Positions 1,335 to 59,309 of a stretch of 64,000 nucleotides of DNA are shown here, piece by piece. The stretch is taken from assembly GCA_044350705.1 (NCBI GenBank), contig JBILHA010000001.1, forward strand, positions 177,809 to 241,808. Reading direction: 5' to 3'. A program made the translations under genes and the position numbers. The notes under the pieces were generated by a model, which had not been told where the DNA came from, did no database searches, and saw only the letters and a list, made by a program, of their open reading frames with translations. This DNA comes from Candidatus Kapaibacterium sp. GTDB taxonomy: Bacteria > Patescibacteriota > Patescibacteriia > UBA9934. The first letter of the stretch is position 1. Each line of letters opens with the position of its first letter.

Positions 1335-1372
1335 ATAAAAAACATCACGGAATATTCCGTGATGTTTTTTAT
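1335..1372. terminator. Bidirectional rho-independent terminator hairpin
   Basis: Perfect inverted repeat aacatcacggaatattccgtgatgtt flanked by an A-run upstream and a T-run downstream. It sits at the 3' end of the convergent minus-strand gene ending at 1372. Confidence 0.5.
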
Positions 1373-2325: not shown

Positions 2326-2550
2326 AACGGCGGATGCTCTCACGATTTTTTTCCACTGTCAAGAAATTTTTTTGGGAAAATAAAATAAAATATTGCTTCA
2401 TTTAGCAAAATTTTATCTTCAGGAGAAATGTTTTTATTGCGTTGCTGCAGTCTTTTGGGGTGGAGGGAGTATGGTTTCGAGTATAGGCGGCTGCGCTCGC
2501 TTGCTTGCCTATAGAATCCAGCGAATTCTCATCCGCTCGCCCCTACAATG

Positions 2551-3823: not shown

Positions 3824-3897
3824 TGGCAGGGGCGGAGGGAATCGAACCCGCGCTAGAGGTTTTGGAGACCCCTGTACTACCATTATACGACGCCCCT
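3824..3897 (-). tRNA. trnW: tRNA-Trp (anticodon CCA)
   Basis: Reverse complement reads AGGGGCGTCGTATAATGGTAGTACAGGGGTCTCCAAAACCTCTAGCGCGGGTTCGATTCCCTCCGCCCCTGCCA. Acceptor stem AGGGGCG/CGCCCCT, anticodon stem GGGGT/ACCTC with loop CTCCAAA (U33, anticodon CCA, A37), GTTCGATTC T-loop, encoded CCA end. Confidence 0.85.
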
Positions 3898-39756: not shown

Positions 39757-39770
39757 AAAGAAAAATAGAT

Positions 39771-40631
39771 GTGGCGGTCGTTCCTGTTTACAAAAAGTTA
39801 GGGGCAACTCCCCTTGAGGCTTTGGAAGCGCTTCGCGTTGATCGACCTGATCTTGCTCATGAGCTGATGACGTATGCAGGGCGACTAGATCCGATGGCTG
39901 AGGGCGTGCTTTTGGTGCTTACGGGCGAGGATCGATACCGGGCGAAGGAATTTCAGCAGTTAGATAAGACGTATCGAGCAACTTTTTTACTTGGGTTTTC
40001 ATCGGATACGGGAGATGTGTTGGGGATGGTGGGGAGTGAGATGGGACGGATGGGGACGGATGAGGTGGATAAGGGGAGTAAAGGGAGTGAGGGGAGTTTG
40101 GGGAGTAGGAGAGGTACAGGTGATGGGTGTCATTTTGACCGGCAAGTGGCCGGTCTTGAGGGAGATGCTCAGGCGACCGAAGGATCTCCGCATGAAGGGC
40201 ATTTTGAAGAGCGAATAAGAGAAATACTGGTGGGAAATCATGAAATACCGCTCCCGGCTTATTCTTCTTATAAAGTAAAAGGAAAACCACTTCATTATTG
40301 GGCAAAAAGTGGGCGTCTTGCTGAGATTGAGATTCCTCGTCGGGTGATGCGTGTGCATGCGGTGCGTAATGTTTCGCTTTCACGGATTTCGTATGCGGAT
40401 CTTTTTCAAGAAATAGCATCCCGTATTGCGCTTGTTCAGGGAGACTTTCGCCAAGAAGAAATTCTTTTGCGGTGGCGGGATGTTTTACGAGAAGAAAAAC
40501 ATGCGGTTCTTGTGCATTGTGAGCTTGATGTTTCATCAGGAACATATGTGCGTTCCTTGGCAAAGTGTATTGAGGAGAATTTTCATATTCCTACTCTGCT
40601 TTTTCGACTTTTTCGATCGCGTGTTGGGTAG
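39771..40631 (+). CDS. truB: tRNA pseudouridine(55) synthase TruB-like, with in-frame Gly/Ser-rich insertion, no PUA domain
   Basis: YKKLGATPLEALEALR (TruB motif I region), YAGRLDPMAEGVLLV (catalytic Asp), KTYRATFLLGFSSDTGD, later PAYSSYKVKGKPLHYWA. A ~60-aa low-complexity segment GSEMGRMGTDEVDKGSKGSEGSLGSRRGTGDG... is encoded by the G-rich repeat. Confidence 0.75.
   Translation: MAVVPVYKKLGATPLEALEALRVDRPDLAHELMTYAGRLDPMAEGVLLVLTGEDRYRAKEFQQLDKTYRATFLLGFSSDTGDVLGMVGSEMGRMGTDEVDKGSKGSEGSLGSRRGTGDGCHFDRQVAGLEGDAQATEGSPHEGHFEERIREILVGNHEIPLPAYSSYKVKGKPLHYWAKSGRLAEIEIPRRVMRVHAVRNVSLSRISYADLFQEIASRIALVQGDFRQEEILLRWRDVLREEKHAVLVHCELDVSSGTYVRSLAKCIEENFHIPTLLFRLFRSRVG
40021..40125. repeat. G-rich repeat copy D, embedded in-frame in truB
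   Basis: tggggatggtggggagtgagatgggacggatggggacggatgaggtggataaggggagtaaagggagtgaggggagtttggggagtaggagagg: same GGGGAGTRR-type units as the intergenic copies. Confidence 0.5.
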
Positions 40632-40722
40632 GGCTTATTTTATTGGTTATTTTTACGATTTTTTTGTGTAAAACTTTTTCTTTTCCTTCTTTCTTTTTTG
40701 TATACTTTGAGCGTCTCAATTT

Positions 40723-43700
40723 ATGGTGCTTTTCCCCTCTTCTTTTTCTCGTTTCTCGCGTTTTTTGAAAGTTCTCGGAGGATCGATCTTTATTCTTACG
40801 TTTATTCTTCTTTCGCCTTTTTGGTCTGAAGCTGCCGCATGTCCGGTTACCGATGGAGGCGTGGGAGATGGTGATGGTTCTGCGAATGGAACTCTAACGA
40901 TTAATGCGAGTACTTCCTGGACTCCTCCTGCAACGCGGGGCGATTTTTGGGATTGTACGGGGAAGACGGTTCATGTAACAGGTGGTGCTACGTTGACTTT
41001 TTCAACGGTAACTACCTCGGGTCGTTTCGGTTATTTGAAAGCGGATAACATCATTGTTGATGCGGGGTCGGCTATTTCTTCCGATGGCCTTGGCTGTTCC
41101 GTGAGCTCTCCTGGATGGGGATTTGGGCCGAATGTCACTACGGGTATTTGTACCTTGGAAACAACGGGAGCTGGACGTGGTGGTAGTGGTAGCGGATATT
41201 CTCCTGCTTCGGGTAGTTATGGTGGGCTTGGTGGATATGGAGGAAGCCCTTCTTGGCTCGCGGGAAGTGTTTATGGTGATCCTATTTCCCCCATGCTTTT
41301 TGGGTCTTCTTCTGGTGATACGAACTATGAAGATTCTGGTCCTGGAGGAGGTGTTGTTTGGTTGCACGCTACCGATACGCTCACGTTAGATGGCACGATA
41401 TCTGCACGAGGACTTGCAGGTGCTTCTGCTGCGGCGGGTGCAGGATCTGGCGGATCCATTCTTTTGTTAGCTCAAGTTATCGATGGAACAACTGGTGCTT
41501 TGAATGCCGAAGGTGCGGATGGAAAGTCGAGTGGATCGGGAAGGTTTAGCGGCGGTGGTGGTGGTGGAAGGGTATCCGTTCTTTATGGTACAGATTCGAG
41601 TTCTTGGCTTGGTTCGCTATCCCCGTCGACCGTTGTTTCGGGGGGTCTTTCTTCTGGTGGTACGAGCACTGCGGGTGAAGATGGCACTGTTTATAAAAGC
41701 GCTTCATACGATCCTGCGATCGCGTTTGCCACTATTTCTGATAGTGATGCTGATTATCAAGTCGATACGATTACCATTACTTTTGATCGAGATTTAGATG
41801 GCGCTACAGTTGCCATGAGTGATTTTTCTCTTGATGGTGGATATACTATTACTTCCGCTTCCGAAACTTCAGCTGGTGTTGTTACTTTAACGGTTGCTGA
41901 GCGCGGATATGTTGATGTTGAGCGCTCGATTACCATTTCTCTTGTAGGAAGTGTTACTGATACCATGTTTGGACTTTCGTCGTCGAGCGACGTGTACTAT
42001 GCGGTTTCTTCGACATGTCCATTCTTTGATGGCTCTCCAGACGATGCAGATTTGGCAAGAAATGGTTCGTATACCATTGCAGAAGCAGTTCAGCTCACTC
42101 CATCGCCATATCGCCTGAACTGTGAAGGTTTAGATTTGGTTGTGAATAGTACCGTCACTTTTGCAGGAAGTGTTTCTACGGGCGATTATTCTCATTTGCG
42201 TGCTGACGATATTACGTTGGGATTTGGTGGGGTATTTTCTGCAACAGAAAGGGGATGTCAGGGACTTGCACAATCAGCCCATGAGCCTGGTTTGGATAAT
42301 ATTTGTGGTGCAAGTGCACTTTCTTCTGGAAATGGAAGTAGCGGAGCGGGAGGTGGTGGTATTAGTCAGGCGCGTGGTGGTGGAGGAGGATACGGTGGAA
42401 ATGGAGGGCAGGGTGGTTCAGCAGCTGCACTTGCAGGATTTTTAGGAGGTACGAGTTACGGTTCCTCAACGACGCCATTGCTGTTTGGTTCTACGGGAGG
42501 TGGTACAACGGGTAGCCGGGGTGGACATGCGGGAGGTATTGTTGCCATTACCGCTTCTGGTACGTTTACCTGGAACGGATCCATTCTTTCTCAAGGAGGA
42601 AATGGTACGGGAACGAGCGGATCTGCGGCTGGTGGAGGTGGATCGGGTGGATCGGTGTATATTCAGGCCGCAACGCTTGCGGGAAGTACGGGTTCTGTTT
42701 CTGCTGCTGGAGGGAATGGATATAGTGGAAGTTCGGTGAATGGTGGTGGAGGTGGAGGAGGACGTGTTGCTATTTATTACGGTACAGATTCTACATCGTT
42801 TGTAAGTGGATTGAGTGCGGCAGGTGTTGCAGCAGGTGGAACTGGTCCTTCTGCTGCCGCTGAAGGTACCGCGGGAAGTTTGTATACGTCGGCTACCTAT
42901 ACCGCTGCTGCTCCGGAAGCTATTGAAGGTTTTACTCGAGATGCTGATACAGATGGCTATTTAGATGCCATTGTTTTACTTTTTACTGAAGATCTTGATG
43001 CTGCATCACTTGCGACGACTGATTTTTCGGTGACGGGATATACAATTACCGGCGTTGCGCTTACTTCCGGTAATGTTGTAACACTTTCACTTCAAGAAGG
43101 CGGAACTCCTGATACATCTGCAATTCCGGCTACTTCTATCGTTGGATCGATTAGCGGTGCAACGTCGGGAACGATTACTTCGGGAAGTTTTGTTATGAAT
43201 GATGAGGCGTACCCGGTTGCGATGTCGGCTTCATATTTGGATACGAATGTGAACGGTGCAGTTGATCGTGTAGATATTGTTTTTTCTGAAACCATCACCT
43301 TTAGCTATAACTCTGGTGATTGGACTTTTCCCGATGCGGGTTCGTTTAATTTAGTAGATACCACTTTCGCAGTAACTACGAATACGCTTCGTCTTACGGT
43401 TACTGCAGATGCTGAAGAGACGAGTTCTAGTACAACGCCGACTGTTTTATATACAAATACTGCAAATCGCTTGCAGGATGCTTCTGGAAACTTTACCGCA
43501 ACATTCCCTTCGGCGTTATCTATTTCCGATGCTGCTGCGCCAGCAATTAATGCCATGACTACGGGAGATGCAAATAGTGATGGATATATTGATACATTAA
43601 TATTTGTATGGACTGAAAATGTTGATACCAATGATGGAGCCCCTCCTGTTCTTGCTGACTTTGGTACGATTACCATGCCAAACGGAGGTACTGCATCGAG

Positions 43701-46700
43701 TGCGACGATTAGTGACCCTGGGGGAATTTCGAATACGGTTACTCTCACAAACGTAACTGGACAAACGAATATTTTTACGGGTACTACAAGCGTTGCGATT
43801 AATGGGATTACAGGGCAGTGGAGTGATGGCACGAACCTTACGACGAATCCTGACGATTCTGAAACAGTTATCGATGCCGCTTCGCCGATTATTCGTACGG
43901 ATGGTGCGAACGCTCCTCGTTATGAAGATAGTAATAGCGATGGAACTATTGATCGTATCCGTTTAATTTTTTCTGAAAATACCACCATTACGTATACTGA
44001 TGCGGATTGGACCATTACGCCAAACGCATTAACGAGCGCTGATGTTTCGGCAGTTTCTTCGGGAAGCGGTACGACGACGGTTTATTTAACCGCTACAGCT
44101 CAATCGCTTTTGACGGGTGTTGGTACTGGCACGGTTCCTACGCTTTCATATGCGCAAAGTTCTGGCTCGGTTGCTGATGCAACAGGCAACCAACTTGCTA
44201 CGGTATCCGGTGTCAATCTTGTCGACTTTGCGAATCCTCGTTTGCGAACGGATTCTGGTAATCAAATGGCGTATCAAGATGCTGATGCGAATGGCAGCAT
44301 AGATCGTGTTCGTTTGATATTTACAGAGCCGGTTACGATTACCTATGTTGATGCAAACTGGGTTTCTGTGGCGAACTCACTTACGGGTTTTGATGTCGGT
44401 GCGCTTTCTTCGGGAAATGGAACATCAACGGTCTATCTTACCGCTACGACATCTTCTGCAACAACAGGTGTTGGCGCGGGAACGCAGCCTACCCTTCGCT
44501 TTACCGCGGGAAGTGGGGGAAGTATTGTTGATAGTGCTTCTAACGCACTTGCTTCTATTGCAGCCACTTCTCTTATTGATGAAGCGTTGCCGATTTTGCT
44601 TACTTCTCGATACCGCGATATTAACTACAACGCTACGGTAGATCGGTTTGATCTTACTTTTTCTGAAACCATGACCGTTGCTACGTGTGAAACGGGAGAT
44701 TATACCCTTTCGGGAAGTGACGCTTCGGGCGTTTCGGTGGCGTCGTGTTCTGCTACGGGTGCCGTGGTTGAGCTTACGCCCTCAGGTATTCCTGCAAATG
44801 ATACTTCGTTAACATTGGCCCTTTCGTATAATGCATCTGCGGGTACGGCGAATAGTTTGCGCGACGGTGCTGCAAATGGCGTTGCATCTTTTTCCTCGGT
44901 TTCGCTTGCTGATGCAACCTCACCCGTGCCTCTTGGTGGGGTTTCTCGCGATGTAAATAGTGATGGCACCGTAGATAGAGTTGTCGTTTCTTTTTCGGAG
45001 AATGTTACGGCAGCACATTGCGATGCAGCTGATTACACATTCTCAGGCACGCATGCGAGTGGTTTAGCGATTAGTGCATGTAGCCCTTCTGGACAAGATA
45101 TTTCGTATACACTCACTGGAGCTCCAGTTGCAAATACTGCGTTAAGTTTTTCGTGGACCTATACTCAGGCGGCGGGAACGGCAAATAGTTTAGCTGATGA
45201 TATTGGAAATGTGATTCCTAATGTCACTCTTGCAGTTACCGATGCCGCTGCGCCGGTTATCATTTCCGGTTCTTATACTGATGGCAATGGAGATGGAACA
45301 GTAGATGCGGTTTCTCTTGGTTTTTCTGAAGCGGTAACTGTCACGTATGACGATGGTGACTGGATAGCCAATGCTCGTGATTTAACGGGCTTTGATGTTA
45401 CAGGACTTACTTCTGGATCGGGAACTTCCTCACTTGTTTTTTCAGCAACGTCATCCTCGGTTACGGGTGTTGGCGCTTTGGGTGACGAGCCTACGCTTCG
45501 TTATACCGATGGCGCAGGTTCGCTTACGAGCGCGACGGGGGAGACCCCGTTGTCTATTAGTGCATTTACCCTTGCCGATAATGCAGATCCGTTGATTGTT
45601 TCTGGTGCGTATCAAGATGACAATGGGAACGGAACGGTTGATCTCGTCGTGCTTTCATTCACCGAGCCATTGGATTATGCCGCTTGTGAGGTTGGAGATT
45701 TTTCTTTTGCGGGTGCTGATGGATCGGGATTGTCGTTTTCTTCGTGCTCTGCAGGGTCCGGGGTTGATGGGGAATTTGTGCTTAATGGCGCTCCTTCTCT
45801 TGAAACAACGCTTGATATTGATCTTTCCTATAATGCGCTTGCCGGGCTTGCGAGCAGCTTAGTTGATAGCGAAGGAAATGCGCTCCCTTCATTTAGTGCC
45901 CTGAGTATTGACGATGAAGCGACACCCGTTCTTCTTTCTTCGTCTTATCAAGATGCTAATGCTGACGGTCGGGTTGATCGTGTCGCCTTGCAATTTTCTG
46001 AACCGGTTACGCTTACGTATGCAGATGGCGATTGGACAGCTATTGCGAACGGCTTGGTAAGTTTTGATGTCACAGGTATTCATTCGGGAAATGGTAGCGC
46101 TACCCTTCTTCTTTCTGCTACGGCGATGGCGGATCGTACGGGTGTTTCCTCTATTTCTTCTCAACCGCAACTTTCATTTACTGCGACCACAGGAAGTTTG
46201 GTTGATGCGGTTGGACAGGCGATTACTTCCTTAAGTACGTTTTCCGTTGCCGATGCGGCGGCCCCAGTTATTATTAGTGGTTCGTATGTAGATAGTGATA
46301 GCGATGCGGAGGTTGATCGTGTGCAATTGTTGTTTACGGAAGAGACGACGATTAATTTTGCTCTTGCGGATTGGACGGTTTCTTCAGGGGATCTCACGGG
46401 ACTTGCGATTTCTGCGATTGCTTCAGGGAATGGCAATGCGCTTATTTCTTTTGATGCATCTGCTGCTGCGGAGTTAACGGGAGTAGGTGCTGGTATTGAA
46501 CCGACATTAACATATCTTCCTGTTACGGGTTCAGTTGCTGATCGTTACGCTAATGCGCTGGTTTCTTCCGGACCGCATTCGCTTGTTGATGCCGCTGATC
46601 CGGTTTTGTTGAGTACAAATCCATCGCATAGTGAGTTGCATGTTGATCGAGATGCTGATGTTGTACTTTCTTTTTCTGAAGCTATGGATATCAATACATT

Positions 46701-49700
46701 TGCGTATGATATTTCCAATGCCGGTGTTTCTGAAGGTATTACGTGGGATGCCGATGAACGTATCGCAACGATTGATTTTGTATCAACACTTCCTGAAGAA
46801 ACGGTTATTACTGTTGAGGTGACCTTGGCCACGGACTATACGGGAAACGGATTCTCTCTTCTTGCGGGTATCGATAATCCTTTCTCATTTACTACAGCGG
46901 GTGCCATTATTAACCCCGTCCTCACCTCCGGATCTACACGCGACACTGATAATGACGGAAAAATAGATGCAATTGTTCTCTCCATCGATCAAGATATTAA
47001 TGGACTTACGGTTGCTGCTGCTGACTTTACGGTGACGGGCTACACCATTTCTTCTGCTTCTCGTACGGCTTCTGGTCAAATTACCCTTGTTCTCACCGAA
47101 GGAGGCTCTCTTGATACCGATGCTCGACCAGTAGTACAGGTCGTTGGTTCTGTAGATGGAGTATCTTCTGGTTTTCTTACCTCTGGAAGTATTACTCCGG
47201 CTGACGGTGCCGCACCTCTTGTGGTTTCTGGAGCGTATAAAGATAGTAATGCCGACGGTACGGTAGACCGTGTTGAAGTGTTGTTCTCCGAACCTCTTTC
47301 TTACAGCGCTTGTGAATACAGCGACTTCTCCTTTGGCGGCGCTGATGGGGCAGGGTTTTCTGTAAACGGTTGTGCAGCAGGGAGCGGTGATTACGGAGTA
47401 TTTGCTCTTGCAGGAGCTCCTAGTGGAGATACCTCGCTTACGCTTACCTTCTCGTACACCGCATCTCTTGGAACCACGAACAGTCTTGATGACGCTGCAG
47501 ATAACGCACTTCCTACGTTCTCTGCACTTGCACTTGCTGATGAAGCTCTTCCTGCACGACTTTCTAGTGCATACCAAGATGCTAATGCTGACGGTACGGT
47601 TGACCGTGTAGAACTTGTCTTCTCTGAAGCGGTCACGCTTACCTATGCAGATGCTGATTGGACGGCAACGGCTCATGGACTCACCGGATTTGATGTTACT
47701 GGCATTGCTTCTGGTAACGGTACGGATACCTTGTACCTTACGGCAACGGCAAGTGCTCATGTTACGGGTATTGCTGAGGAGGCAAGTCAACCAACGCTTG
47801 CTTTTACGGCAACGACGGGAAGCTTGGTTGACGGTGAAGGTTCCGCACTCTCTTCACTCACTACATTTGTTCTTCTCGATGATGCTGCTCCTGTTTTGCG
47901 AAGCGATATTGAAAGCGTATATCGTGATACTTCAGGAAATGGTGTTGTTGATCGTGTTGTCTTGCGTTTTACTGAAGATGTTAATGCGACGTACGATGCC
48001 GTAGATTGGGCTGTTACGGAAAATGACTTAGCAGGTCTTACAATTACGAGTGCGTCTGCCGGCTGGGCCTCTACAGTAAGTCTTACGGCTACCGCTGATG
48101 GTGTTCAGACGGGTGTTGGTCTTGGCGCAGAGCCGGGAATTGCTTTTTCTCCCGCGCTTGGTCAAATTGTCGATCGCTCAGGTAATGTGGTCAGTGCTTT
48201 TTCTCGCACGCTCGTTGATGATGCTTCGCCGCTTCTTGTAAGCTCTTCACCCCTTCATGGTGCAACGGGTGTTGCTCTTGATACGAACATTGTTCTTTCA
48301 TTTAGTGAAACAATGGATATCAATAACTTCTCTTTTTCTCTTTCTGAAGTTGTTGCGGGTGAAAGCTTGGGATGGAATGCGGCAGAAGATGAAATTACCA
48401 TTGAATATGCTGATAATTTTGAGTATGAAACTGAATATACGGTCTCACTTCTTGCCGCTCCTGATCTTGCGGGTAATGCGCTTGGCGGTGCATTAATCGG
48501 TTCTGCAAATCCTTTTAGCTTCACGACACTCTCCATTGTTGTGCATCCTGTCCTCACCTCTGGATCTACTCGAGATACCGATAACGATGGAAAGATAGAC
48601 GCCATTGTTCTCTCCATCGATCAAGACATTAATGGATTAACGGTTGCTTCTTCAGATTTTTCGGTGACGGGCTATACCATTTCTTCTGCTTCTCGTACGG
48701 CTTCTGGTGAAATCACTCTCGTTCTCACCGAAGGAGGTTCTCTTGATACCGATGCTCGACCGGCAGTACAGGTTGTTGGTTCTGTAGATGGAGCATCTTC
48801 TGGTTTTCTTACCTCTGGAAGTATTACTCCAGCTGACGGTGCCGCACCTCTTGTGGTATCTGGAGCGTATAAAGATAGCAATGCCGACGGTACCGTAGAT
48901 CGTGTTGAAGTATTGTTCTCCGAACCTCTTTCTTACGGCGCTTGTGAATACGGTGACTTCTCCTTTGGTGGTGCTGATGGGGCAGGGGTTTCTGTAGCGT
49001 CTTGTGGTTCGGGGGATGATGCCTATGGAATCTTTATTCTTTCTGGAACTCCAAGTAACGACACTTCTCTTGAGCTTACGTTTACGTATGCGGCATCTGC
49101 GGGAACTGCAAATAGCCTTGATGACGCTGCAGACAACGCACTTCCTTCCTTCTCTGCACTTGCACTTGCCGACGAAGCTCTTCCTGCACGGCTTTCTAGT
49201 GCATACCAAGATGCTAATGCTGACGGTACGGTAGACCGTGTAGAGCTTGTCTTTTCTGAAGCGGTTACGCTTACCTATGCCGATGCTGATTGGACGGTAA
49301 CGGCTCATGGTCTCGCTGGATTTGACGTTACAGGCATTGCTTCTGGAAACGGCACCGATACTTTGTACCTTTCGGCAATGGCGAGTGCGAATACGACCGG
49401 AATTGGTGAAGAGGATAGTCAGCCAACGCTTGCTTTTACGGCTACGACGGGAAGTTTGGTTGCGCTAGTTGGCGGCTCCGCTTTGCCTGCACTTTCCTCA
49501 TTTTATCTCTCCGATGAGGCGGCTCCTCGCATGATTTCTGGATCGTATTTTGATGAAAATGCTGATGCGCGTGTTGACGCAATGGATATTCTTTTTACTG
49601 AACCTGTCGATGTTCCATTTTGTGAATCCGAAGATTATGCATTTACTGGTGATGATGTGGGATCTCTCGTCGTAATTACATGCCCTGGGGAATCCGCTTC

Positions 49701-51351
49701 TCTTGGGCGATTTACGCTTTCTGGATCTCCAGCTTTTACCACGTATCTCTCTTTCGGCATTACGTATTCACAGATCTCGGGAATTAGTAACAGTATTGTT
49801 GATCTTTTAGGCAATGTCATGATTGATCAGGCGGTTGCATCGTTTGATGATGAAGCGCTTCCTATCATTCGCACGGATAACGGGCATGCTCCGCGCTATG
49901 AAGATGCGAATGGTGACGGTTCAGTAGATCGCGTTCGTCTTTCCATGACGGAAGATGTACTCGTGACGTATGTTGATGCTGAATGGACTGCTTCAGCAAA
50001 TGCATTTGGTACCCTTGATGCTGTTGGTCTTTCGGGTGGTAGTGGTACGTCGACGATTTTCATTTCTCTTGAAGCTCCGAGTGAGCTTACTGGCGTTGGT
50101 TCTTCGGCTCAACCACGTATTGCGTATGCGCCAACGTCTTCGGGTATTACTGACCTTGCGGGAAATGTGGGTCGATCGCTTGCAAGTAGGGCGATGGTTG
50201 ATGCCGCCGCGCCACTTATCAAGGATCTTTTTCCTGATTTTGGTGAGAGTGCCGTTGCAACTGATAGTCTGCCGGTTATTCGCTTTACCGAACCGATGTC
50301 GACGTCGCTTGCTGATACCGTTTTCACGCTTACTCCCTCGGTGGCTGGACTTTCCGGTGTATGGAGTGAGAGTAATGCGGTTTATTCTATGACTGCAACT
50401 TCTGCGCTTGATGCTTCAACGGAATATTTCTTAGCAATTGAGAGTAATGATGTTGTGGGTAATCTCTTTGGAAATGGCATCGTTTCTTCGTTGACGGGTT
50501 CGTTCCCTTGGACATTCACCACTGCGCAAGCTCGTCGATCGGGTTCTCAAGATCTTTTGCCACTTCCTCCGCAAACTCTTTCCGTTACGGTGCATCAGCC
50601 TCTTCCTGCTCCGTTGCCGCTTGGTTATCTTCGTGCAGATCGGCCCATCATTGTAAGTTGGCGAACGACAAGTGTTTTTTCAACGCTTGCACGAGTTTCC
50701 TATCGGGTGAATGAAGGTCCTTGGGAAGTTGCTGTTGAAAATACTACGATGCCTAGTGCTATGGTTCGTCTCCCGTATGATGCGCAAGGTAACGTTGACT
50801 TCATGGTGTCGATTTATGACCTTGATCGAGTAGTTATTGAAGGATTTAGTTTGGGATATGTTGTTGGTGAAGAGGTCGAAGAAATGCCTTCTGATTATCA
50901 TATTGTTTCGTATATCAAGTCAGAAGAGTTTTCCACGATTTACGGACTTGATTCTCTCGGAGTTCGTAGGCCGTTCTTAAATGAACAAGTTTTCTTTACA
51001 TGGGCAGAGCGTTTTGATGAAGTGCACGTTCTTTCTTCCGTGGATCTTGCAGAGTATCCGATTGGATCGCCTATGCTTCCGAAGGCAGAAAGTATTTTGG
51101 TGAAGATTCAGTCTGATCCTCGGGTGTATTTCGTTGTTACTCCTGAATATCCTCAAGATCCTCCTTTGCTTCGTCATGTTCCGAACGAATTAGTTGCGCG
51201 TGAATTGTTCGGTGATGCTTGGGATCGTTCGGTGATCGATATTGAACCTACTTTCTTCACACAATTCACGCTTGGACTTCCGCTAGACGTTTCCTTTGGT
51301 GCGCGTTCGCTCTTTACTCGTGAGGATCTTTCAGCTCGTGCGCTTCGTTGA
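40723..51351 (+). CDS. Giant secreted repeat protein (3542 aa): signal peptide, two Gly-rich beta-helix-like modules, >25 tandem ~100-aa Ca-binding-motif repeats, unique C-terminal domain
   Basis: Single uninterrupted ORF. N-terminal signal/TM (FILTFILLSPFWSEAAA). Duplicated Gly-rich modules ending GGGGGGRVSVLYGTDSS / GGGGGGGRVAIYYGTDST. Alternating repeats with DxNxDGxVDRVxLxFSE and Cys-pair ACE...C motifs. Antisense ORFs in the track are shadows. Confidence 0.8.
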   Translation: MVLFPSSFSRFSRFLKVLGGSIFILTFILLSPFWSEAAACPVTDGGVGDGDGSANGTLTINASTSWTPPATRGDFWDCTGKTVHVTGGATLTFSTVTTSGRFGYLKADNIIVDAGSAISSDGLGCSVSSPGWGFGPNVTTGICTLETTGAGRGGSGSGYSPASGSYGGLGGYGGSPSWLAGSVYGDPISPMLFGSSSGDTNYEDSGPGGGVVWLHATDTLTLDGTISARGLAGASAAAGAGSGGSILLLAQVIDGTTGALNAEGADGKSSGSGRFSGGGGGGRVSVLYGTDSSSWLGSLSPSTVVSGGLSSGGTSTAGEDGTVYKSASYDPAIAFATISDSDADYQVDTITITFDRDLDGATVAMSDFSLDGGYTITSASETSAGVVTLTVAERGYVDVERSITISLVGSVTDTMFGLSSSSDVYYAVSSTCPFFDGSPDDADLARNGSYTIAEAVQLTPSPYRLNCEGLDLVVNSTVTFAGSVSTGDYSHLRADDITLGFGGVFSATERGCQGLAQSAHEPGLDNICGASALSSGNGSSGAGGGGISQARGGGGGYGGNGGQGGSAAALAGFLGGTSYGSSTTPLLFGSTGGGTTGSRGGHAGGIVAITASGTFTWNGSILSQGGNGTGTSGSAAGGGGSGGSVYIQAATLAGSTGSVSAAGGNGYSGSSVNGGGGGGGRVAIYYGTDSTSFVSGLSAAGVAAGGTGPSAAAEGTAGSLYTSATYTAAAPEAIEGFTRDADTDGYLDAIVLLFTEDLDAASLATTDFSVTGYTITGVALTSGNVVTLSLQEGGTPDTSAIPATSIVGSISGATSGTITSGSFVMNDEAYPVAMSASYLDTNVNGAVDRVDIVFSETITFSYNSGDWTFPDAGSFNLVDTTFAVTTNTLRLTVTADAEETSSSTTPTVLYTNTANRLQDASGNFTATFPSALSISDAAAPAINAMTTGDANSDGYIDTLIFVWTENVDTNDGAPPVLADFGTITMPNGGTASSATISDPGGISNTVTLTNVTGQTNIFTGTTSVAINGITGQWSDGTNLTTNPDDSETVIDAASPIIRTDGANAPRYEDSNSDGTIDRIRLIFSENTTITYTDADWTITPNALTSADVSAVSSGSGTTTVYLTATAQSLLTGVGTGTVPTLSYAQSSGSVADATGNQLATVSGVNLVDFANPRLRTDSGNQMAYQDADANGSIDRVRLIFTEPVTITYVDANWVSVANSLTGFDVGALSSGNGTSTVYLTATTSSATTGVGAGTQPTLRFTAGSGGSIVDSASNALASIAATSLIDEALPILLTSRYRDINYNATVDRFDLTFSETMTVATCETGDYTLSGSDASGVSVASCSATGAVVELTPSGIPANDTSLTLALSYNASAGTANSLRDGAANGVASFSSVSLADATSPVPLGGVSRDVNSDGTVDRVVVSFSENVTAAHCDAADYTFSGTHASGLAISACSPSGQDISYTLTGAPVANTALSFSWTYTQAAGTANSLADDIGNVIPNVTLAVTDAAAPVIISGSYTDGNGDGTVDAVSLGFSEAVTVTYDDGDWIANARDLTGFDVTGLTSGSGTSSLVFSATSSSVTGVGALGDEPTLRYTDGAGSLTSATGETPLSISAFTLADNADPLIVSGAYQDDNGNGTVDLVVLSFTEPLDYAACEVGDFSFAGADGSGLSFSSCSAGSGVDGEFVLNGAPSLETTLDIDLSYNALAGLASSLVDSEGNALPSFSALSIDDEATPVLLSSSYQDANADGRVDRVALQFSEPVTLTYADGDWTAIANGLVSFDVTGIHSGNGSATLLLSATAMADRTGVSSISSQPQLSFTATTGSLVDAVGQAITSLSTFSVADAAAPVIISGSYVDSDSDAEVDRVQLLFTEETTINFALADWTVSSGDLTGLAISAIASGNGNALISFDASAAAELTGVGAGIEPTLTYLPVTGSVADRYANALVSSGPHSLVDAADPVLLSTNPSHSELHVDRDADVVLSFSEAMDINTFAYDISNAGVSEGITWDADERIATIDFVSTLPEETVITVEVTLATDYTGNGFSLLAGIDNPFSFTTAGAIINPVLTSGSTRDTDNDGKIDAIVLSIDQDINGLTVAAADFTVTGYTISSASRTASGQITLVLTEGGSLDTDARPVVQVVGSVDGVSSGFLTSGSITPADGAAPLVVSGAYKDSNADGTVDRVEVLFSEPLSYSACEYSDFSFGGADGAGFSVNGCAAGSGDYGVFALAGAPSGDTSLTLTFSYTASLGTTNSLDDAADNALPTFSALALADEALPARLSSAYQDANADGTVDRVELVFSEAVTLTYADADWTATAHGLTGFDVTGIASGNGTDTLYLTATASAHVTGIAEEASQPTLAFTATTGSLVDGEGSALSSLTTFVLLDDAAPVLRSDIESVYRDTSGNGVVDRVVLRFTEDVNATYDAVDWAVTENDLAGLTITSASAGWASTVSLTATADGVQTGVGLGAEPGIAFSPALGQIVDRSGNVVSAFSRTLVDDASPLLVSSSPLHGATGVALDTNIVLSFSETMDINNFSFSLSEVVAGESLGWNAAEDEITIEYADNFEYETEYTVSLLAAPDLAGNALGGALIGSANPFSFTTLSIVVHPVLTSGSTRDTDNDGKIDAIVLSIDQDINGLTVASSDFSVTGYTISSASRTASGEITLVLTEGGSLDTDARPAVQVVGSVDGASSGFLTSGSITPADGAAPLVVSGAYKDSNADGTVDRVEVLFSEPLSYGACEYGDFSFGGADGAGVSVASCGSGDDAYGIFILSGTPSNDTSLELTFTYAASAGTANSLDDAADNALPSFSALALADEALPARLSSAYQDANADGTVDRVELVFSEAVTLTYADADWTVTAHGLAGFDVTGIASGNGTDTLYLSAMASANTTGIGEEDSQPTLAFTATTGSLVALVGGSALPALSSFYLSDEAAPRMISGSYFDENADARVDAMDILFTEPVDVPFCESEDYAFTGDDVGSLVVITCPGESASLGRFTLSGSPAFTTYLSFGITYSQISGISNSIVDLLGNVMIDQAVASFDDEALPIIRTDNGHAPRYEDANGDGSVDRVRLSMTEDVLVTYVDAEWTASANAFGTLDAVGLSGGSGTSTIFISLEAPSELTGVGSSAQPRIAYAPTSSGITDLAGNVGRSLASRAMVDAAAPLIKDLFPDFGESAVATDSLPVIRFTEPMSTSLADTVFTLTPSVAGLSGVWSESNAVYSMTATSALDASTEYFLAIESNDVVGNLFGNGIVSSLTGSFPWTFTTAQARRSGSQDLLPLPPQTLSVTVHQPLPAPLPLGYLRADRPIIVSWRTTSVFSTLARVSYRVNEGPWEVAVENTTMPSAMVRLPYDAQGNVDFMVSIYDLDRVVIEGFSLGYVVGEEVEEMPSDYHIVSYIKSEEFSTIYGLDSLGVRRPFLNEQVFFTWAERFDEVHVLSSVDLAEYPIGSPMLPKAESILVKIQSDPRVYFVVTPEYPQDPPLLRHVPNELVARELFGDAWDRSVIDIEPTFFTQFTLGLPLDVSFGARSLFTREDLSARALR

Positions 51352-51414
51352 GGAGTTCCTTGAAACTGTTGTCATTTTTTTGCATTTCAGGCACACTCTG
51401 AACGATTATCTTTA

Positions 51415-54090
51415 TTGGATTGTATGGGTTTTTTGAGCAAGATTTTTCCAGATGCAAATACGCGTGTCGTTCAATCGCTTAAAAAAGAGGTTGATCGCAT
51501 GAATGCTCTTGAAGAGGGGATTCAATCGCTTTCAGATGAGGCCTTGCGTGCAAAAACCGCAGAGTTTAAGACGCGTCTTGCGGAAGGGGAAAAGCTTGAT
51601 GCCATTCTTTCCGAAGCTTTTGCAGTATGCCGTGAAGCGGCTCGTCGGACGCTTGGACAGCGCCATTATGATGTGCAGCTCATGGGAGGTCTTGTTTTGC
51701 ATAAGGGTGGTATTGCGGAAATGCGCACGGGTGAAGGAAAGACGCTTACCGCTACTGCGGCCGTGTATGCCAATGCGCTCGTAGGAAAAGGTGTACATGT
51801 GATTACCGTGAACGATTATCTTGCAAAACGTGATGCTGCATGGATGGGTCGCGTTTTCCATTTTCTTGGTCTTTCCACGGGCTGTATCCAGCATGAAAGC
51901 GGGTATGTTTTTGATGAAGCATTTCGTGCCCCAGAGCAAACACAAGAAGAAAAGGAAGCTGCAGCTGAGAAGAGTGGCTATAAGGTGCAGATGGATTTCT
52001 TGCGCCCTTGTGCGCGTAAGGAGGCGTATGCTGCAGATATTACGTACGGAACGAATAATGAATTTGGTTTTGACTACCTTCGCGATAACATGGCTCAGAC
52101 TGCAGAGGCGATGGTGCAGCGTGGTCTTCATTTCGCTATTGTTGATGAAGTTGACTCTATTTTGATCGATGAAGCGCGCACGCCGCTCATTATTTCTGCC
52201 CCTGCTGAGGAATCTTCAGATACGTATTATCGCTTTGCAGAAATTGCAAAGACGCTTATTGCAGGAGAAGACTATAATGTTGATGAAAAGCTTCGCACGG
52301 CAACGTATACCGAAGCTGGTCTTCAAAAAGTTGAGCGTGCGCTGGGGGTTGAGAATTTGTATGAAACGGGGTTGCAAAACGTCCACCACGCCGAGCAGGC
52401 GCTTCGTGCGCAGGCGCTCTTTCATGTTGATAAAGAGTATGTCGTGCGTAATGCTGAAGTCATGATTGTTGATGAATTTACGGGACGTCTCATGGAAGGT
52501 CGTCGGTATTCGGAGGGTCTTCACCAGGCGATTGAGGCGAAAGAAGGGGTGAAGATTCAGCGTGAAAGCAAGACGCTTGCCACGATTACCTTCCAGAATT
52601 ATTTCCGTTTGTATGAGAAGCTTTCGGGAATGACCGGTACTGCAGCAACAGAGGCAGAAGAATTTTCTAAGATTTATAGTTTAGAAGTGACGCAGATTCC
52701 TACCCATCGTGAGAATAAGCGTACCGATCACTCGGATAAAATTTTCCGCAATGAAAAGGGGAAGTGGATGGCAGTCGTAAAAGAGGTGAAGGCGCGTCAT
52801 GAAAAGGGACAGCCGGTACTTATTGGTACGGTTTCTATCGATAAAAATCAGTTGTTATCACAGGCGCTGACTGCGGCAGGTATTCCGCATAAGATGCTTA
52901 ACGCAAAGAACCACGAACAAGAAGCTGAGATTATTGCGCAGGCTGGTCGGCGTGGTGCGGTGACGCTTGCGACCAACATGGCAGGACGTGGTGTCGATAT
53001 TTTGCTCGGCGGAAACCCGCAGGATGCGGAAGAAGCAGCTGCGGTACGTGCACTTGGCGGACTCTTTGTTATTGGTACAGAACGACATGAGAGTCGTCGC
53101 ATTGACAACCAGCTTCGGGGTCGTGCGGGACGCCAGGGAGATCCGGGAGAAACGCAATTCTTCGTGTCGCTCGATGATGATCTCATGCGCATTTTCGGAT
53201 CGGATCGTATTAAGGGCATGATGCAGTCTTTGGGTATTCCCGATGATGAGCCTATTGTGAGCGGTATGGTGACGCGTTCGCTTGAGAAGGCGCAGCAGCG
53301 TGTTGAGGGTCATCATTTCGATACGCGTAAGCATGTCTTGCAATACGACGATGTGCTTAATAAACACCGTCTTGCGATTTATGCAGAGCGTCGCGGTTTG
53401 GTTACAGGTGAGCGTGCAGATGCGCATGAGGAAGTGATGCGTATGATCGAGGGGGAGATTGAACGCGTGGTTCTTTTCCATACGAGCGCTGAAAAAACGG
53501 ATATTCCGCAAGAATTTTCTGAAGAAGGGAAGCTTGCAGAAGGAGATTGGAATCCAAAGGAACTCATTGAAACTTTCAATACTATTGTTCCCCTCACCGA
53601 AGAAGAGAAGATTGCGTTACAGGCAGCGCTTCCAGAGGTTTCTCAAGATAAAGAAAAGCTTCTGCAGGATCGTACGAAGATTATCGAAGAGATGCTTTCG
53701 ATTGTTCGTGTTCGGCTTGTAAAATCAATTGAAGAGTTTGGTGACGAAGAAAAGGTGCGACGCTTGGAGCGAGGATTACTCTTACGTGCGATTGATGGAG
53801 CATGGATGCGTCATTTGGAAGATATGACGTATCTTCGTCGCACGATTGGACTCCAGGGATATGCGCAGCGTGATCCACTCGTGGAGTATAAGAAGGAAGC
53901 ATTCCGTTTGTATGCAGCGCTTCGTGAAGATGTTGCAAAGGAAGTGGTCTACAATGTCGTGAAACTTCTTTCTCAAGCAGCAAGTGCTCAAAAGTTTCTT
54001 GCAGCCGCTCCTGATTTGCTGAAGCAAGCAGCAAAGATGTTTGGAGGAAAGAATGGTACGAGCGGAAGCAGCGGTGTTGTGGGGGGATAA
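51415..54090 (+). CDS. secA: Preprotein translocase ATPase SecA
   Basis: 891 aa. DEAD-like motor motifs (MRTGEGKTLTATAAVYANAL, IVDEVDSILIDEARTPLIIS, ATNMAGRGVDI), preprotein cross-linking and helical scaffold regions. Confidence 0.95.
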   Translation: MDCMGFLSKIFPDANTRVVQSLKKEVDRMNALEEGIQSLSDEALRAKTAEFKTRLAEGEKLDAILSEAFAVCREAARRTLGQRHYDVQLMGGLVLHKGGIAEMRTGEGKTLTATAAVYANALVGKGVHVITVNDYLAKRDAAWMGRVFHFLGLSTGCIQHESGYVFDEAFRAPEQTQEEKEAAAEKSGYKVQMDFLRPCARKEAYAADITYGTNNEFGFDYLRDNMAQTAEAMVQRGLHFAIVDEVDSILIDEARTPLIISAPAEESSDTYYRFAEIAKTLIAGEDYNVDEKLRTATYTEAGLQKVERALGVENLYETGLQNVHHAEQALRAQALFHVDKEYVVRNAEVMIVDEFTGRLMEGRRYSEGLHQAIEAKEGVKIQRESKTLATITFQNYFRLYEKLSGMTGTAATEAEEFSKIYSLEVTQIPTHRENKRTDHSDKIFRNEKGKWMAVVKEVKARHEKGQPVLIGTVSIDKNQLLSQALTAAGIPHKMLNAKNHEQEAEIIAQAGRRGAVTLATNMAGRGVDILLGGNPQDAEEAAAVRALGGLFVIGTERHESRRIDNQLRGRAGRQGDPGETQFFVSLDDDLMRIFGSDRIKGMMQSLGIPDDEPIVSGMVTRSLEKAQQRVEGHHFDTRKHVLQYDDVLNKHRLAIYAERRGLVTGERADAHEEVMRMIEGEIERVVLFHTSAEKTDIPQEFSEEGKLAEGDWNPKELIETFNTIVPLTEEEKIALQAALPEVSQDKEKLLQDRTKIIEEMLSIVRVRLVKSIEEFGDEEKVRRLERGLLLRAIDGAWMRHLEDMTYLRRTIGLQGYAQRDPLVEYKKEAFRLYAALREDVAKEVVYNVVKLLSQAASAQKFLAAAPDLLKQAAKMFGGKNGTSGSSGVVGG

Positions 54091-59307: not shown

Positions 59308-59309
59308 CT

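What the first reader, a model, noticed from the sequence alone, without database searches (positions are those of the whole stretch)
40723..51351. 10.6-kb gene for a 3542-aa secreted repeat protein: candidate surface adhesin or S-layer-like giant protein
A single ORF with a signal/anchor sequence. It has two Gly-rich modules resembling parallel beta-helix or passenger-like regions. These are followed by more than 25 tandem ~100-aa repeats with the acidic loop D-x-[ND]-x-D-G-x-[VI]-D (EF-hand/dockerin/cadherin-like Ca-binding signature, e.g. YQDANADGTVDRVELVFSE, DTDNDGKIDAIVLSID). Two repeat classes alternate, one with a conserved Cys pair (ACE...C). The unique ~300-aa C-terminal domain may be a cell-wall anchoring or sorting module. 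Giant surface proteins of this kind are typical mediators of cell-cell attachment in small-genome symbionts.
Basis: partly seen in the sequence, partly recalled or inferred. Interest (0 to 1): 0.7.

Follow-up and report, generated by a model that had tools for sequence, protein, structure and literature searches.

The report
Giant wall-anchored surface fibre of Patescibacteria
This is a real 3542-residue secreted protein of an ultra-small (Patescibacteria/CPR) bacterium, most likely a roughly 100-nm calcium-stiffened surface fibre with a beta-helix tip and a previously unannotated cell-wall-binding-like tail; the kind of protein is known, but two of its building blocks are not in the domain databases.

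Summary
The ORF 40723-51351 (+) is real: 3542 codons with no stop, and the identical protein occurs on at least 3 independent metagenome contigs.

Its architecture is:
- a Sec-type signal peptide (aa 1-37);
- two ~290-aa Gly-rich right-handed beta-helix modules;
- 21 Ig-like repeats of ~100-118 aa, each carrying a D-x-[DN]-x-[DN]-G-x-[IVL]-D loop between its first two strands;
- 3 Big_5 Ig domains;
- an unresolved ~130-aa beta region;
- a ~130-aa C-terminal domain (CTD).

There are 21+3 modules, in three classes and an irregular order.

The CTD is not unique. It is a tandem ~60-aa unit shared by at least 860 Patescibacteria proteins, fused there to cupredoxins and an M23 peptidase. It has no Pfam, NCBIfam or PDB sequence match. 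Its fold resembles the EccB repeats and the PlyCB/enterococcal endolysin wall-binding domains.

SecA identity and gene order place the organism in Patescibacteria, near Uhrbacteria.

Best reading: a non-covalently wall-anchored, Ca2+-rigidified fibrillar adhesin. Function is inferred, not shown.

Novelty: a new variant of a known kind. Interest is moderate.

The parts
40723..51351 (+). Whole gene: 3542-aa precursor, mature about 354.5 kDa, pI 4.05
40723..40833 (+). Sec-type signal peptide, aa 1-37, with predicted signal peptidase I (SPase I) cleavage at SEA|AACP
   Evidence: Only hydrophobic segment. The AXA-like site and onset of conservation are shared with P0002, P0274, P0129 and P0065. No dedicated predictor was available.
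40834..41700 (+). Gly-rich beta-helix module 1 (aa 38-326), with two conserved Cys pairs (40/78, 125/143)
   Evidence: Homologous to module 2; HMM hit
41701..42006 (+). Degenerate A-type Ig-like repeat (aa 327-428), loop DSDADYQVD
42010..42900 (+). Gly-rich beta-helix module 2 (aa 430-726)
42901..46587 (+). Eleven Ca-loop Ig-like repeats (aa 727-1955), order A-C-A'-C-C-B-B-C-B-C-C
46588..46902 (+). Big_5 Ig-like domain 1 (aa 1956-2060), no Ca loop
   Evidence: PF13205, 98.9 bits for the protein, 3 stretches
46903..48216 (+). Four Ca-loop repeats A-B-C-C (aa 2061-2498). 46915-47830 is one copy of an internal duplication.
   Evidence: 86.5% nt identity over 920 nt with 48547-49462
48217..48537 (+). 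Big_5 Ig-like domain 2 (aa 2499-2605)
48538..50199 (+). Five Ca-loop repeats A-B-C-B-C (aa 2606-3159)
50200..50514 (+). Big_5 Ig-like domain 3 (aa 3160-3264)
50515..50904 (+). Unresolved region (aa 3265-3394), short beta strands predicted, low confidence
   Evidence: pLDDT <50, no alignment depth. Weak similarity to P0003 and P0038 only.
50905..51294 (+). C-terminal domain (aa 3395-3524): tandem ~60-aa units, putative cell-wall-binding anchor

Best explanation
The gene encodes a Sec-exported fibrillar surface protein of a Patescibacteria (Uhrbacteria-related) cell.

- After signal-peptide cleavage, the C-terminal tandem PlyCB/EccB-repeat-like domain holds the protein non-covalently on the cell's own Gram-positive-type wall (inferred).
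- The 24 Ig-like modules form a stalk of roughly 100 nm (inferred from about 4 nm per Ig domain).
- Twenty-one of these modules bind one Ca2+ each in a nine-residue D-x-[DN]-x-[DN]-G-x-[IVL]-D loop between strands A and B. This stiffens and mechanically stabilises the stalk (inferred from the motif class, and from Sdr B-domain and RTX-adhesin precedents).
- The two N-terminal right-handed beta-helix modules sit at the distal tip. They are the likely ligand- or host-binding part (inferred from the topology of Gram-positive fibrillar adhesins and from fold matches to adhesin passengers).

Shown here: the ORF, domain boundaries, folds, family distributions and taxonomy. Not shown: export, Ca2+ binding, wall binding and adhesion.
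For: ORF and reproducibility:
- The ORF is intact and the identical protein is assembled on at least 3 contigs.

Export:
- A single N-terminal hydrophobic segment. The AXA site is conserved, with conservation starting at the mature N-terminus.
- All 20 Cys fall in 10 regularly spaced pairs.
- pI is 4.05, with no other TM segment, no RTX motif and no C-terminal LPXTG.

Tip:

Stalk:
- All-beta repeats matching SbsC, Sap and EA1 S-layer Ig domains, EstA Ig-like and CopC. Three are Big_5.
- The loop lies between the first two strands.
- Over 1288 repeat instances in 150 homologues the loop positions are conserved: D1 96%, D/N3 80%, D/N5 95%, G6 94%, I/V/L8 96%, D9 92%.
- Dx[DN]xDG is an established Ca-binding motif in many folds (PMC3123361).
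- Ca2+-loaded Ig-like B domains make stalks of wall-anchored adhesins extremely force-resistant (PMC6232131).

Anchor:
- The CTD model has pLDDT ~94 and is a tandem duplication.
- Foldseek independently ranks EccB5, EccB1 and EccB3 first, prob up to 0.97.
- EccB1 repeats were themselves likened to PlyCB (PMC4769845).
- The same domain follows the signal peptide of ~265-aa cupredoxin proteins, and follows an M23 peptidase through a Gly/Ser linker. The latter is the classic catalytic-plus-wall-targeting layout.
- 25 of the 150 best repeat-family proteins end with it.

Context:
- Mur genes and an LCP ligase in the window indicate a peptidoglycan wall with attached polymers.
- Giant surface proteins are documented in CPR bacteria and linked there to host attachment (PMC8080830).
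Against: - No experiment or expression data.
- AF2 does not model Ca2+.
- The A and C repeats were modelled at only moderate confidence (pLDDT 54-88).
- The beta-helix fold is shared by many non-adhesive proteins (bactofilin, ice-binding proteins, acetyltransferases).
- The signal peptide was judged by rule, not by a dedicated predictor.
- A lipobox-like AAAC precedes Cys40. However, the Cys lies 2-6 residues after the AXA site in homologues and recurs in module 2, where no signal peptide precedes it.
- The gene is absent from the syntenic slot of the closest genomes, so it is accessory. That neither proves nor disproves adhesion.
Confidence: 0.6

Rival explanations
1. It is an S-layer (or S-layer-associated) protein. 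The CTD binds the wall, and the chain of Ig-like domains packs laterally into a surface lattice rather than projecting as a fibre.
- S-layer proteins of Gram-positives share the layout of a wall-binding domain plus a string of Ig-like domains.
- Ca2+ commonly stabilises S-layers (own knowledge).
Against: - At 354 kDa it is far above usual S-layer subunits.
- There is no SLH or other known S-layer anchor.
- The N-terminal beta-helix tip modules are shared with proteins from diderm phyla.
- Homologues range from about 200 to 7687 aa with very different repeat numbers.
- The genomic location is not conserved, and the gene is missing from the syntenic slot in the nearest genomes. That is unusual for a core envelope component.
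Confidence: 0.12
2. The topology is reversed. The N-terminal hydrophobic segment stays as a membrane anchor (or Cys40 is lipidated), and the C-terminal PlyCB-like domain is the distal, host-directed end that grips the wall of the host bacterium, as phage-lysin binding domains grip their target.
For: - The h-region is long (about 18 aa), and AAAC matches a permissive Gram-positive lipobox pattern (sequence).
- PlyCB and the endolysin cell-wall-binding domains (CBDs) bind foreign or target walls.
- An M23 peptidase fused to the same domain could be an attack enzyme.
Against: - An AXA cleavage motif is conserved in homologues, with the Cys at a variable distance. The same Cys-Pro motif recurs in internal module 2.
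- The domain also sits on small cupredoxin proteins, where retention on the producer's own wall is the simplest role.
- In the giant proteins it is always at the end opposite the signal peptide, as anchors are in Gram-positive adhesins.
Confidence: 0.15
3. It is a released matrix or biofilm protein or a defensive 'coat' (for example a phage decoy or protease shield). It has no specific partner, and the CTD is a generic carbohydrate-binding module.
For: - Extremely acidic, Ser/Thr/Ala/Gly-rich composition.
- Accessory distribution and an internal recent duplication, as in rapidly evolving surface proteins.
Against: - The ordered tip-stalk-anchor architecture is conserved in P0002, P0003, P0129 and P0065.
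- The conserved Cys pairs and Gly motifs of the tip module argue for a specific folded functional head.
Confidence: 0.08

Closest known systems
Gram-positive fibrillar adhesins with Ca2+-binding B repeats (SdrC/D/E/G, Bbp of staphylococci)
   Same: - N-terminal Sec signal.
- Ligand-binding region at the N-terminal, distal end.
- A stalk of ~110-aa all-beta Ig-like repeats that coordinate Ca2+ through acidic loops.
- Attachment to the wall at the C-terminus.
- Ca2+ gives mechanical strength (PMC6232131).
   Different: - No LPXTG sorting signal, and no sequence relationship.
- One predicted Ca loop per repeat instead of three sites.
- The tip is a beta-helix, not a DEv-IgG N2N3 pair.
- The anchor is a non-covalent binding-type domain.
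- The protein is 24 modules long.
Giant RTX/T1SS adhesins with Ca2+-rigidified BIg stalks (MpIBP, SiiE, LapA)
   Same: A very long chain of ~100-aa Ig-like domains stiffened by Ca2+. It projects a ligand-binding region far from the cell (PMC5550230, PMC6272769).
   Different: - Those have no N-terminal signal peptide, carry C-terminal RTX repeats and a T1SS signal, and are retained in an outer membrane.
- Here there is a Sec signal peptide and zero RTX nonapeptides, in a monoderm-type host.
S-layer proteins SbsC (Geobacillus) and Sap/EA1 (B. anthracis)
   Same: Best structural matches of the repeats. Same overall logic of a wall-binding domain plus a string of Ig-like domains.
   Different: - Those are 6-9 domains and about 100 kDa, with an SLH or SbsC-type anchor at the N-terminus, and they form lattices.
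- Here there are 24 domains, a different anchor at the C-terminus, and a beta-helix head.
PlyCB, enterococcal endolysin cell-wall-binding domains (Lys170, LysIME-EF1) and EccB repeat domains
   Same: - A small alpha/beta unit of about 50-70 aa found in cell-envelope proteins.
- Top hits of the CTD with two independent methods.
- Used in multiple copies: a PlyCB octamer, CBD oligomers, four EccB repeats, and here a tandem pair.
   Different: - No detectable sequence similarity.
- The ligand is unknown.
- Wall binding by EccB is itself unproven (PMC4769845).
Two-partner-secretion and autotransporter passenger beta-helices (FHA, HMW1, EtpA, pertactin, Ag43) and bactofilin
   Same: Right-handed beta-helix fold of the Gly-rich modules.
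   Different: - No TPS domain signature, and no beta-barrel translocator or YadA anchor.
- The host has no outer membrane.
- The module is a discrete ~290-aa unit with two conserved Cys pairs, repeated in tandem.

Membership tests
Pfam Big_5 (PF13205) bacterial Ig-like domain | Match to the Pfam model above the gathering score | tested here: met
   98.9 bits against a cut-off of 23.6, three stretches (aa ~1956-2060, 2499-2605, 3160-3264). The 21 Ca-loop repeats do not reach it. Only 2 of 18 give weak hits (E 0.004), and hhalign similarity is limited to the first 38 columns.
Dx[DN]xDG calcium-binding loop class | Linear motif with acidic or amide side chains at positions 1, 3, 5, Gly at 6, a hydrophobic residue at 8, and a further ligand downstream | tested here: met
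   19-20 copies in the protein against 0.019 expected. The same positions are 80-96% conserved in 1288 homologous repeats.
Dx[DN]xDG calcium-binding loop class | Actual Ca2+ coordination | not testable with these tools
   AF2 models carry no ions. This needs ITC, crystallography or an ion-aware predictor.
EF-hand / dockerin | Loop flanked by helices (helix-loop-helix, or paired F-hands in a ~70-aa module) | tested here: not met
   DSSP of the model shows strand-loop-strand (E304-310/E320-325 and E404-410/E420-425). Only loop-level hits to dockerin and troponin C, E 0.3-9.
Cadherin-like domains | Match to cadherin models | tested here: not met
   No cadherin family among the Pfam hits, even at E<=1.
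Cadherin-like domains | Inter-domain Ca sites (DXNDN/LDRE-type motifs) | not tested
   The cadherin inter-domain Ca-site motifs were not searched for in the sequence.
LPXTG (sortase) anchored surface proteins | C-terminal LPXTG, then a hydrophobic segment, then a basic tail | tested here: not met
   The only LPXTG-like string is internal (LPVTG at aa 1932). No C-terminal hydrophobic segment.
RTX / type I secreted giant adhesins | C-terminal GGxGxDxUx nonapeptide repeats and no N-terminal signal peptide | tested here: not met
   Zero nonapeptide matches, no HemolysinCabind hit, and an N-terminal signal peptide is present.
Autotransporter / trimeric autotransporter adhesin (the name JGI gives to homologue P0274) | C-terminal beta-barrel translocator or YadA-type anchor, and an outer membrane | tested here: not met
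   No such Pfam or NCBIfam domain. The C-terminus is a small alpha/beta tandem domain.
S-layer proteins of Gram-positive type | Known wall anchor (SLH, or SbsC-type secondary cell-wall polymer (SCWP)-binding domain) | tested here: not met
   No SLH or related hit.
S-layer proteins of Gram-positive type | Self-assembly into a lattice, and high abundance | not testable with these tools
   Only fold similarity of the Ig repeats to SbsC, Sap and EA1 was obtained.
PlyCB-like / EccB-repeat wall-binding fold | Structural superposition on the ~50-70-aa unit | tested here: inconclusive
PlyCB-like / EccB-repeat wall-binding fold | Binding to cell-wall material | not testable with these tools
   Only contextual support: fusion to an M23 peptidase and to secreted cupredoxins.
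Fibrillar adhesin (functional class) | Export signal, repeated stalk domain, anchor at one end | tested here: met
   Signal peptide (rule-based), 24 Ig-like modules, and the CTD at the end opposite the signal peptide.
Fibrillar adhesin (functional class) | A demonstrated adhesive domain | not testable with these tools
   The beta-helix tip is only fold-similar to adhesin passengers.

The most novel reading that the evidence does not exclude
The ~130-aa C-terminal tandem domain is a previously undescribed, Patescibacteria-wide cell-wall-targeting module. It would be the CPR counterpart of SLH, LysM, CWB or SH3b anchors. In organisms that lack an outer membrane, and often lack sortase substrates, it would retain a whole set of extracytoplasmic proteins on the wall: giant Ca-stiffened fibres, cupredoxins and M23 peptidases. 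An HMM of this domain would then read out the wall-bound surface proteome of uncultured CPR bacteria, including their host-contact fibres.
Probability: 0.45. Interest if true: 0.65.

Novelty: new variant of a known kind. Interest (0 to 1): 0.45.

Why it matters
Patescibacteria make up a large share of bacterial diversity, and all cultivated members live attached to other microbes. How most of them hold on to hosts is unknown beyond type IV pili.

This protein belongs to the known class of giant fibrillar surface proteins. Three of its four building blocks are absent from Pfam and NCBIfam:
- the Ca-loop Ig repeat (about 1560 representative clusters);
- the ~290-aa Gly-rich beta-helix module;
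- the C-terminal domain (at least 860 proteins).

If the C-terminal domain is confirmed as a wall anchor, it gives a simple sequence handle for cataloguing CPR surface proteins. It could also be used to design affinity tags or probes for CPR cell walls. The Ca-loop repeat adds a further structural context for the Dx[DN]xDG motif.

Tried and rejected
- A whole-protein homology search timed out.
- A single-sequence search with the last 296 aa found only a fragment of the same protein. The family became visible only after the repeat-profile search supplied C-termini to align.
- Sequence searches of PDB with the whole protein and with the repeat, CTD and beta-helix profiles gave nothing beyond loop-level or low-complexity hits.
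- Pfam and NCBIfam do not cover the repeat, the CTD or the Gly-rich module. The only hit there is a sub-threshold AgmC_N match, 50 bits against a cut-off of 275.
- A functional link to the adjacent secA/secDF genes was considered and rejected. Homologues P0274 and P0002 lie in unrelated contexts. Genomes with 64-87% identical SecA keep the mur-sec gene order but have no giant gene in that slot.
- A lipoprotein reading of AAAC was considered and judged less likely.
- The internal LPVTG was dismissed as chance.
- A first alignment for the second structure job (A5) was discarded because untrimmed multi-module proteins were misaligned onto the Ig region. The trimmed alignment (A6) left the A repeat with almost no depth, so that repeat's model is the weakest part.
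- The region aa 3265-3394 could not be resolved.
Full report
OBSERVATION

The window contains one ORF at 40723..51351 on the + strand, ATG to TGA, 3542 codons without a stop. It is by far the longest ORF in the window. The exact protein sequence is on record on at least three metagenome contigs, the longest a 462-kb JGI contig (sample 3300042340). A 385-aa C-terminal fragment occurs in a second sample. A frameshift or chimeric assembly is therefore unlikely.

The longest internal DNA repeat found (aa 2065-2369 vs 2609-2913) is 86.5% identical over 920 nt. That is divergent enough to assemble correctly.

ANATOMY

N-terminus
- The only hydrophobic stretch is aa 11-40.
- It is preceded by R10, R13 and K16 and followed by S-E-A|A-A-C-P.
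- In homologues the presequences differ, but conservation starts at the same point: P0002 ...STLA|AACPVTDGGAGDGD, P0274 ...SVSA|AAVSCPATDGG.
- I read this as a cleaved Sec signal peptide. No dedicated predictor was available.
- The mature protein is 354.5 kDa, pI 4.05, with 404 acidic against 108 basic residues.
- All 20 cysteines fall in ten regularly spaced pairs, as expected for an extracytoplasmic protein.

Gly-rich modules
- Two modules (aa 38-326 and 430-726) are homologous to each other and to the N-termini of P0002 and P0003. They share invariant Cys pairs and GGGGGGR motifs.
- The module is a discrete ~290-aa domain. It occurs in two or three tandem copies in proteins of Bdellovibrio, Phycisphaerales, Verrucomicrobia, Flavobacteriales (with T9SS signals), Gracilibacteria and others, and carries no Pfam annotation.
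- AlphaFold2 on aa 430-935 gave high confidence for most of the module (pLDDT up to 95). Long strands recur about every 37 residues.

Repeats
- A profile built from the protein's own repeats finds 21 copies.
- Twenty carry a recognisable loop D-x-[NDSG]-x-[DNS]-[GA]-x-[VIL]-D. One (aa 327-428) is degenerate.
A slightly looser form occurs 19 times, against 0.019 expected from 2000 shuffles.
- Three further modules are Big_5 domains without the loop (PF13205, 98.9 bits). The total is 24 Ig-like modules, not more than 25.
- Clustering and composition give three classes: a short A type (~100 aa, four copies plus one odd copy), a B type with a C-x19-C pair (six copies), and a C type with a conserved Trp (ten copies).
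- The order is A0 | A-C-A'-C-C-B-B-C-B-C-C-Big5 | A-B-C-C-Big5 | A-B-C-B-C-Big5. Alternation is only local.
- The modelled A and C repeats are all-beta (pLDDT 54-88), with the acidic loop between the first two strands.
- Profile comparison with the protein's own Big_5 domains aligns only the first 38 columns (prob 75%). Pfam does not recognise the repeats.
- The family is large. 1563 representative clusters have E<=1e-3 and 147 have E<=1e-30. Many are giant proteins of up to 7687 aa.
- Over 1288 repeat instances in the 150 best proteins, the loop positions are the most conserved columns: D1 96%, D/N3 80%, D/N5 95%, G6 94%, I/V/L8 96%, D9 92%.
- This is the Dx[DN]xDG calcium-binding motif, known from at least a dozen folds (PMC3123361). 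Here it sits in a strand-loop-strand context, so 'EF-hand/dockerin' is right at the level of the loop and wrong at the level of the fold.

C-terminus
- A search with the last 296 aa alone found only the protein itself.
- However, 25-26 of the 150 best repeat-family proteins end with a homologue of the last ~130 aa.
- A profile of 20 such C-termini retrieved 860 proteins at E<=1e-5 from only 2680 candidates. Those that carry an organism name are Patescibacteria, Uhrbacteria or Parcubacteria.
- Most are ~265-aa proteins in which the domain directly follows a signal peptide and precedes a cupredoxin domain.
- One has the domain after a Peptidase_M23 domain and a Gly/Ser linker.
- Neither Pfam, NCBIfam nor PDB sequences match.
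- With this alignment AlphaFold2 modelled aa 3395-3524 at pLDDT ~94. The preceding aa 3255-3394 stayed below 50.
- The domain is an internal duplication of a ~60-aa unit (hhalign prob 93%, E 2.7e-7).
- Foldseek independently ranked EccB5, EccB1 and EccB3 first, with prob up to 0.97 and E about 2e-3.
- The EccB1 repeats were themselves compared with PlyCB at a similar Z (5.0). A wall-binding role was only suggested for them (PMC4769845).
- The scores are weak, and half of the query model was unstructured. The agreement of two methods, the unit size, and the fusion partners (a peptidoglycan hydrolase and secreted redox proteins) all point to a wall-retention module.
- There is no LPXTG signal, no C-terminal hydrophobic segment and no RTX repeat.

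ORGANISM AND CONTEXT

The neighbours are housekeeping genes. Upstream are SHMT, MurB, hpf, a Mur ligase and TruB. Downstream are SecA, SecD (with a rotamase insertion), SecF, DUF8128, a TrwB/VirD4-like ATPase and BacA. Further upstream lie ATP synthase, ClpB-like, TGT and an LCP ligase.

SecA is 87% identical to a MAG titled 'uncultured Gammaproteobacteria', which is probably mislabelled. It is 74% identical to a 'Patescibacteria group bacterium' and 64% to a 'Candidatus Uhrbacteria bacterium'. The closest full-length homologues of the giant protein are from Uhrbacteria, one on a 986-kb contig. The small-genome CPR assignment is therefore supported.

The mur-sec gene order is conserved in these relatives, but none has a giant-gene homologue upstream of secA. 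The slot between the Mur ligase and SecA is 11.6 kb here, 2.6 kb in L005 (other small secreted ORFs), 1.6 kb in L006 and 76 bp in L008. Homologues P0274 and P0002 lie in unrelated neighbourhoods. The adjacency to secA is thus incidental, and the gene behaves as an accessory, mobile-in-position surface gene.

MECHANISM

The most likely model has four parts.
- Export through Sec and cleavage at Ala37/Ala38.
- The C-terminal tandem domain binds the cell's own peptidoglycan or an attached polymer.
- The 24 Ig-like modules, 21 of them loaded with Ca2+ in the A-B loop, form a stiff, force-resistant stalk of the order of 100 nm.
- The two beta-helix modules at the free N-terminal end contact a partner surface.

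The precedents are the Ca2+-dependent Ig-like B domains in the stalks of wall-anchored staphylococcal adhesins (PMC6232131), the Ca2+-rigidified BIg stalks of MpIBP and SiiE (PMC5550230, PMC6272769), and the giant surface proteins linked to host attachment in the CPR predator Vampirococcus (PMC8080830).

Every functional step is inference. What is shown is sequence, fold, family distribution and context.

RIVALS
- An S-layer role: best fold matches and similar layout, but wrong size, wrong anchor, variable presence.
- A reversed topology, with an uncleaved or lipidated N-terminus and a host-directed C-terminal binding domain.
- A released matrix or coat protein.

COMPARISON AND NOVELTY

The protein works like a Gram-positive fibrillar adhesin. 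It fails the membership tests for LPXTG proteins, RTX adhesins, autotransporters (the name JGI gives to a homologue), SLH-type S-layer proteins, EF-hands, dockerins and cadherins. Only the three Big_5 domains are members of a curated family.

No paper in the searchable library links PlyCB-like domains to Patescibacteria. I rate it a new variant of a known kind.

VERDICT

The most useful new point is that the 'unique' C-terminus is in fact a widespread, unannotated Patescibacteria domain with a wall-binding-like fold.

Interest is moderate (0.45). A specialist would expect giant surface proteins in CPR genomes, but the anchor domain and the Ca-loop Ig repeat are concrete, testable additions.

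Noticed in passing
window 54724-56757 (+): SecD carries a PpiC-type peptidyl-prolyl isomerase (rotamase) domain inserted at aa ~257-361, between the SecD_1st and P1-head domains. This would fuse a foldase to the translocon accessory subunit.
   Followed up: no
window 57709-61193 (+); also L004 2611-5847, L006 ~21758 onward, L011 11765-13518: A DUF8128 protein and a TrwB/VirD4-like coupling ATPase are adjacent here and in several related Patescibacteria loci. They look like a conserved pair of unknown role.
   Followed up: partly
window 39757-51423; L005 7375-9991; L006 8369-10000; L008 9926-10000: The interval between the Mur ligase and secA is a variable slot in an otherwise conserved mur-sec gene array. 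It holds TruB plus the giant gene here. In L005 it holds a 294-aa Asp/Cys-rich secreted ORF and a 196-aa lipoprotein-like ORF. In L008 it holds almost nothing.
   Followed up: partly
L005, L007, L009, L010 (genome contigs records): MAGs titled 'uncultured Gammaproteobacteria bacterium' share Patescibacteria gene order and 59-87% SecA identity with this window. Their taxonomic labels are probably wrong.
   Followed up: no
window 9324-10646 (+): A LytR_cpsA_psr (LCP) family protein, the ligase type that attaches glycopolymers to peptidoglycan. This is consistent with a Gram-positive-type wall that could offer ligands for the C-terminal domain.
   Followed up: no
window 1372-2343, 2740-3732, 4159-5880 (all - strand), next to tRNA-Trp at 3824-3897: Three sizeable ORFs (323, 330, 573 aa) without any Pfam match.
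   Followed up: no
proteins P0275-P0349, domain coordinates: The ~290-aa Gly-rich beta-helix module is a widespread, unannotated domain. It is usually present in 2-3 tandem copies in secreted proteins of Bdellovibrio, Phycisphaerales, Verrucomicrobia, Flavobacteriales (T9SS) and Gracilibacteria (one with a pilin-type N-terminus).
   Followed up: partly
protein P0274 (homologue, 2648 aa): JGI annotates this homologue as 'trimeric autotransporter adhesin'. No autotransporter anchor is present, and the host lineage lacks an outer membrane, so the name is misleading.
   Followed up: partly
window 46915-47830 vs 48547-49462: Internal duplication of an A-B-C repeat block (86.5% nt identity over 920 nt), indicating repeat expansion by segmental duplication within the gene.
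   Followed up: yes
window 46516-46530 (aa 1932-1936): An internal LPVTG string inside a C-type repeat. It is not followed by a hydrophobic segment, so it was taken as chance rather than a sortase site.
   Followed up: yes
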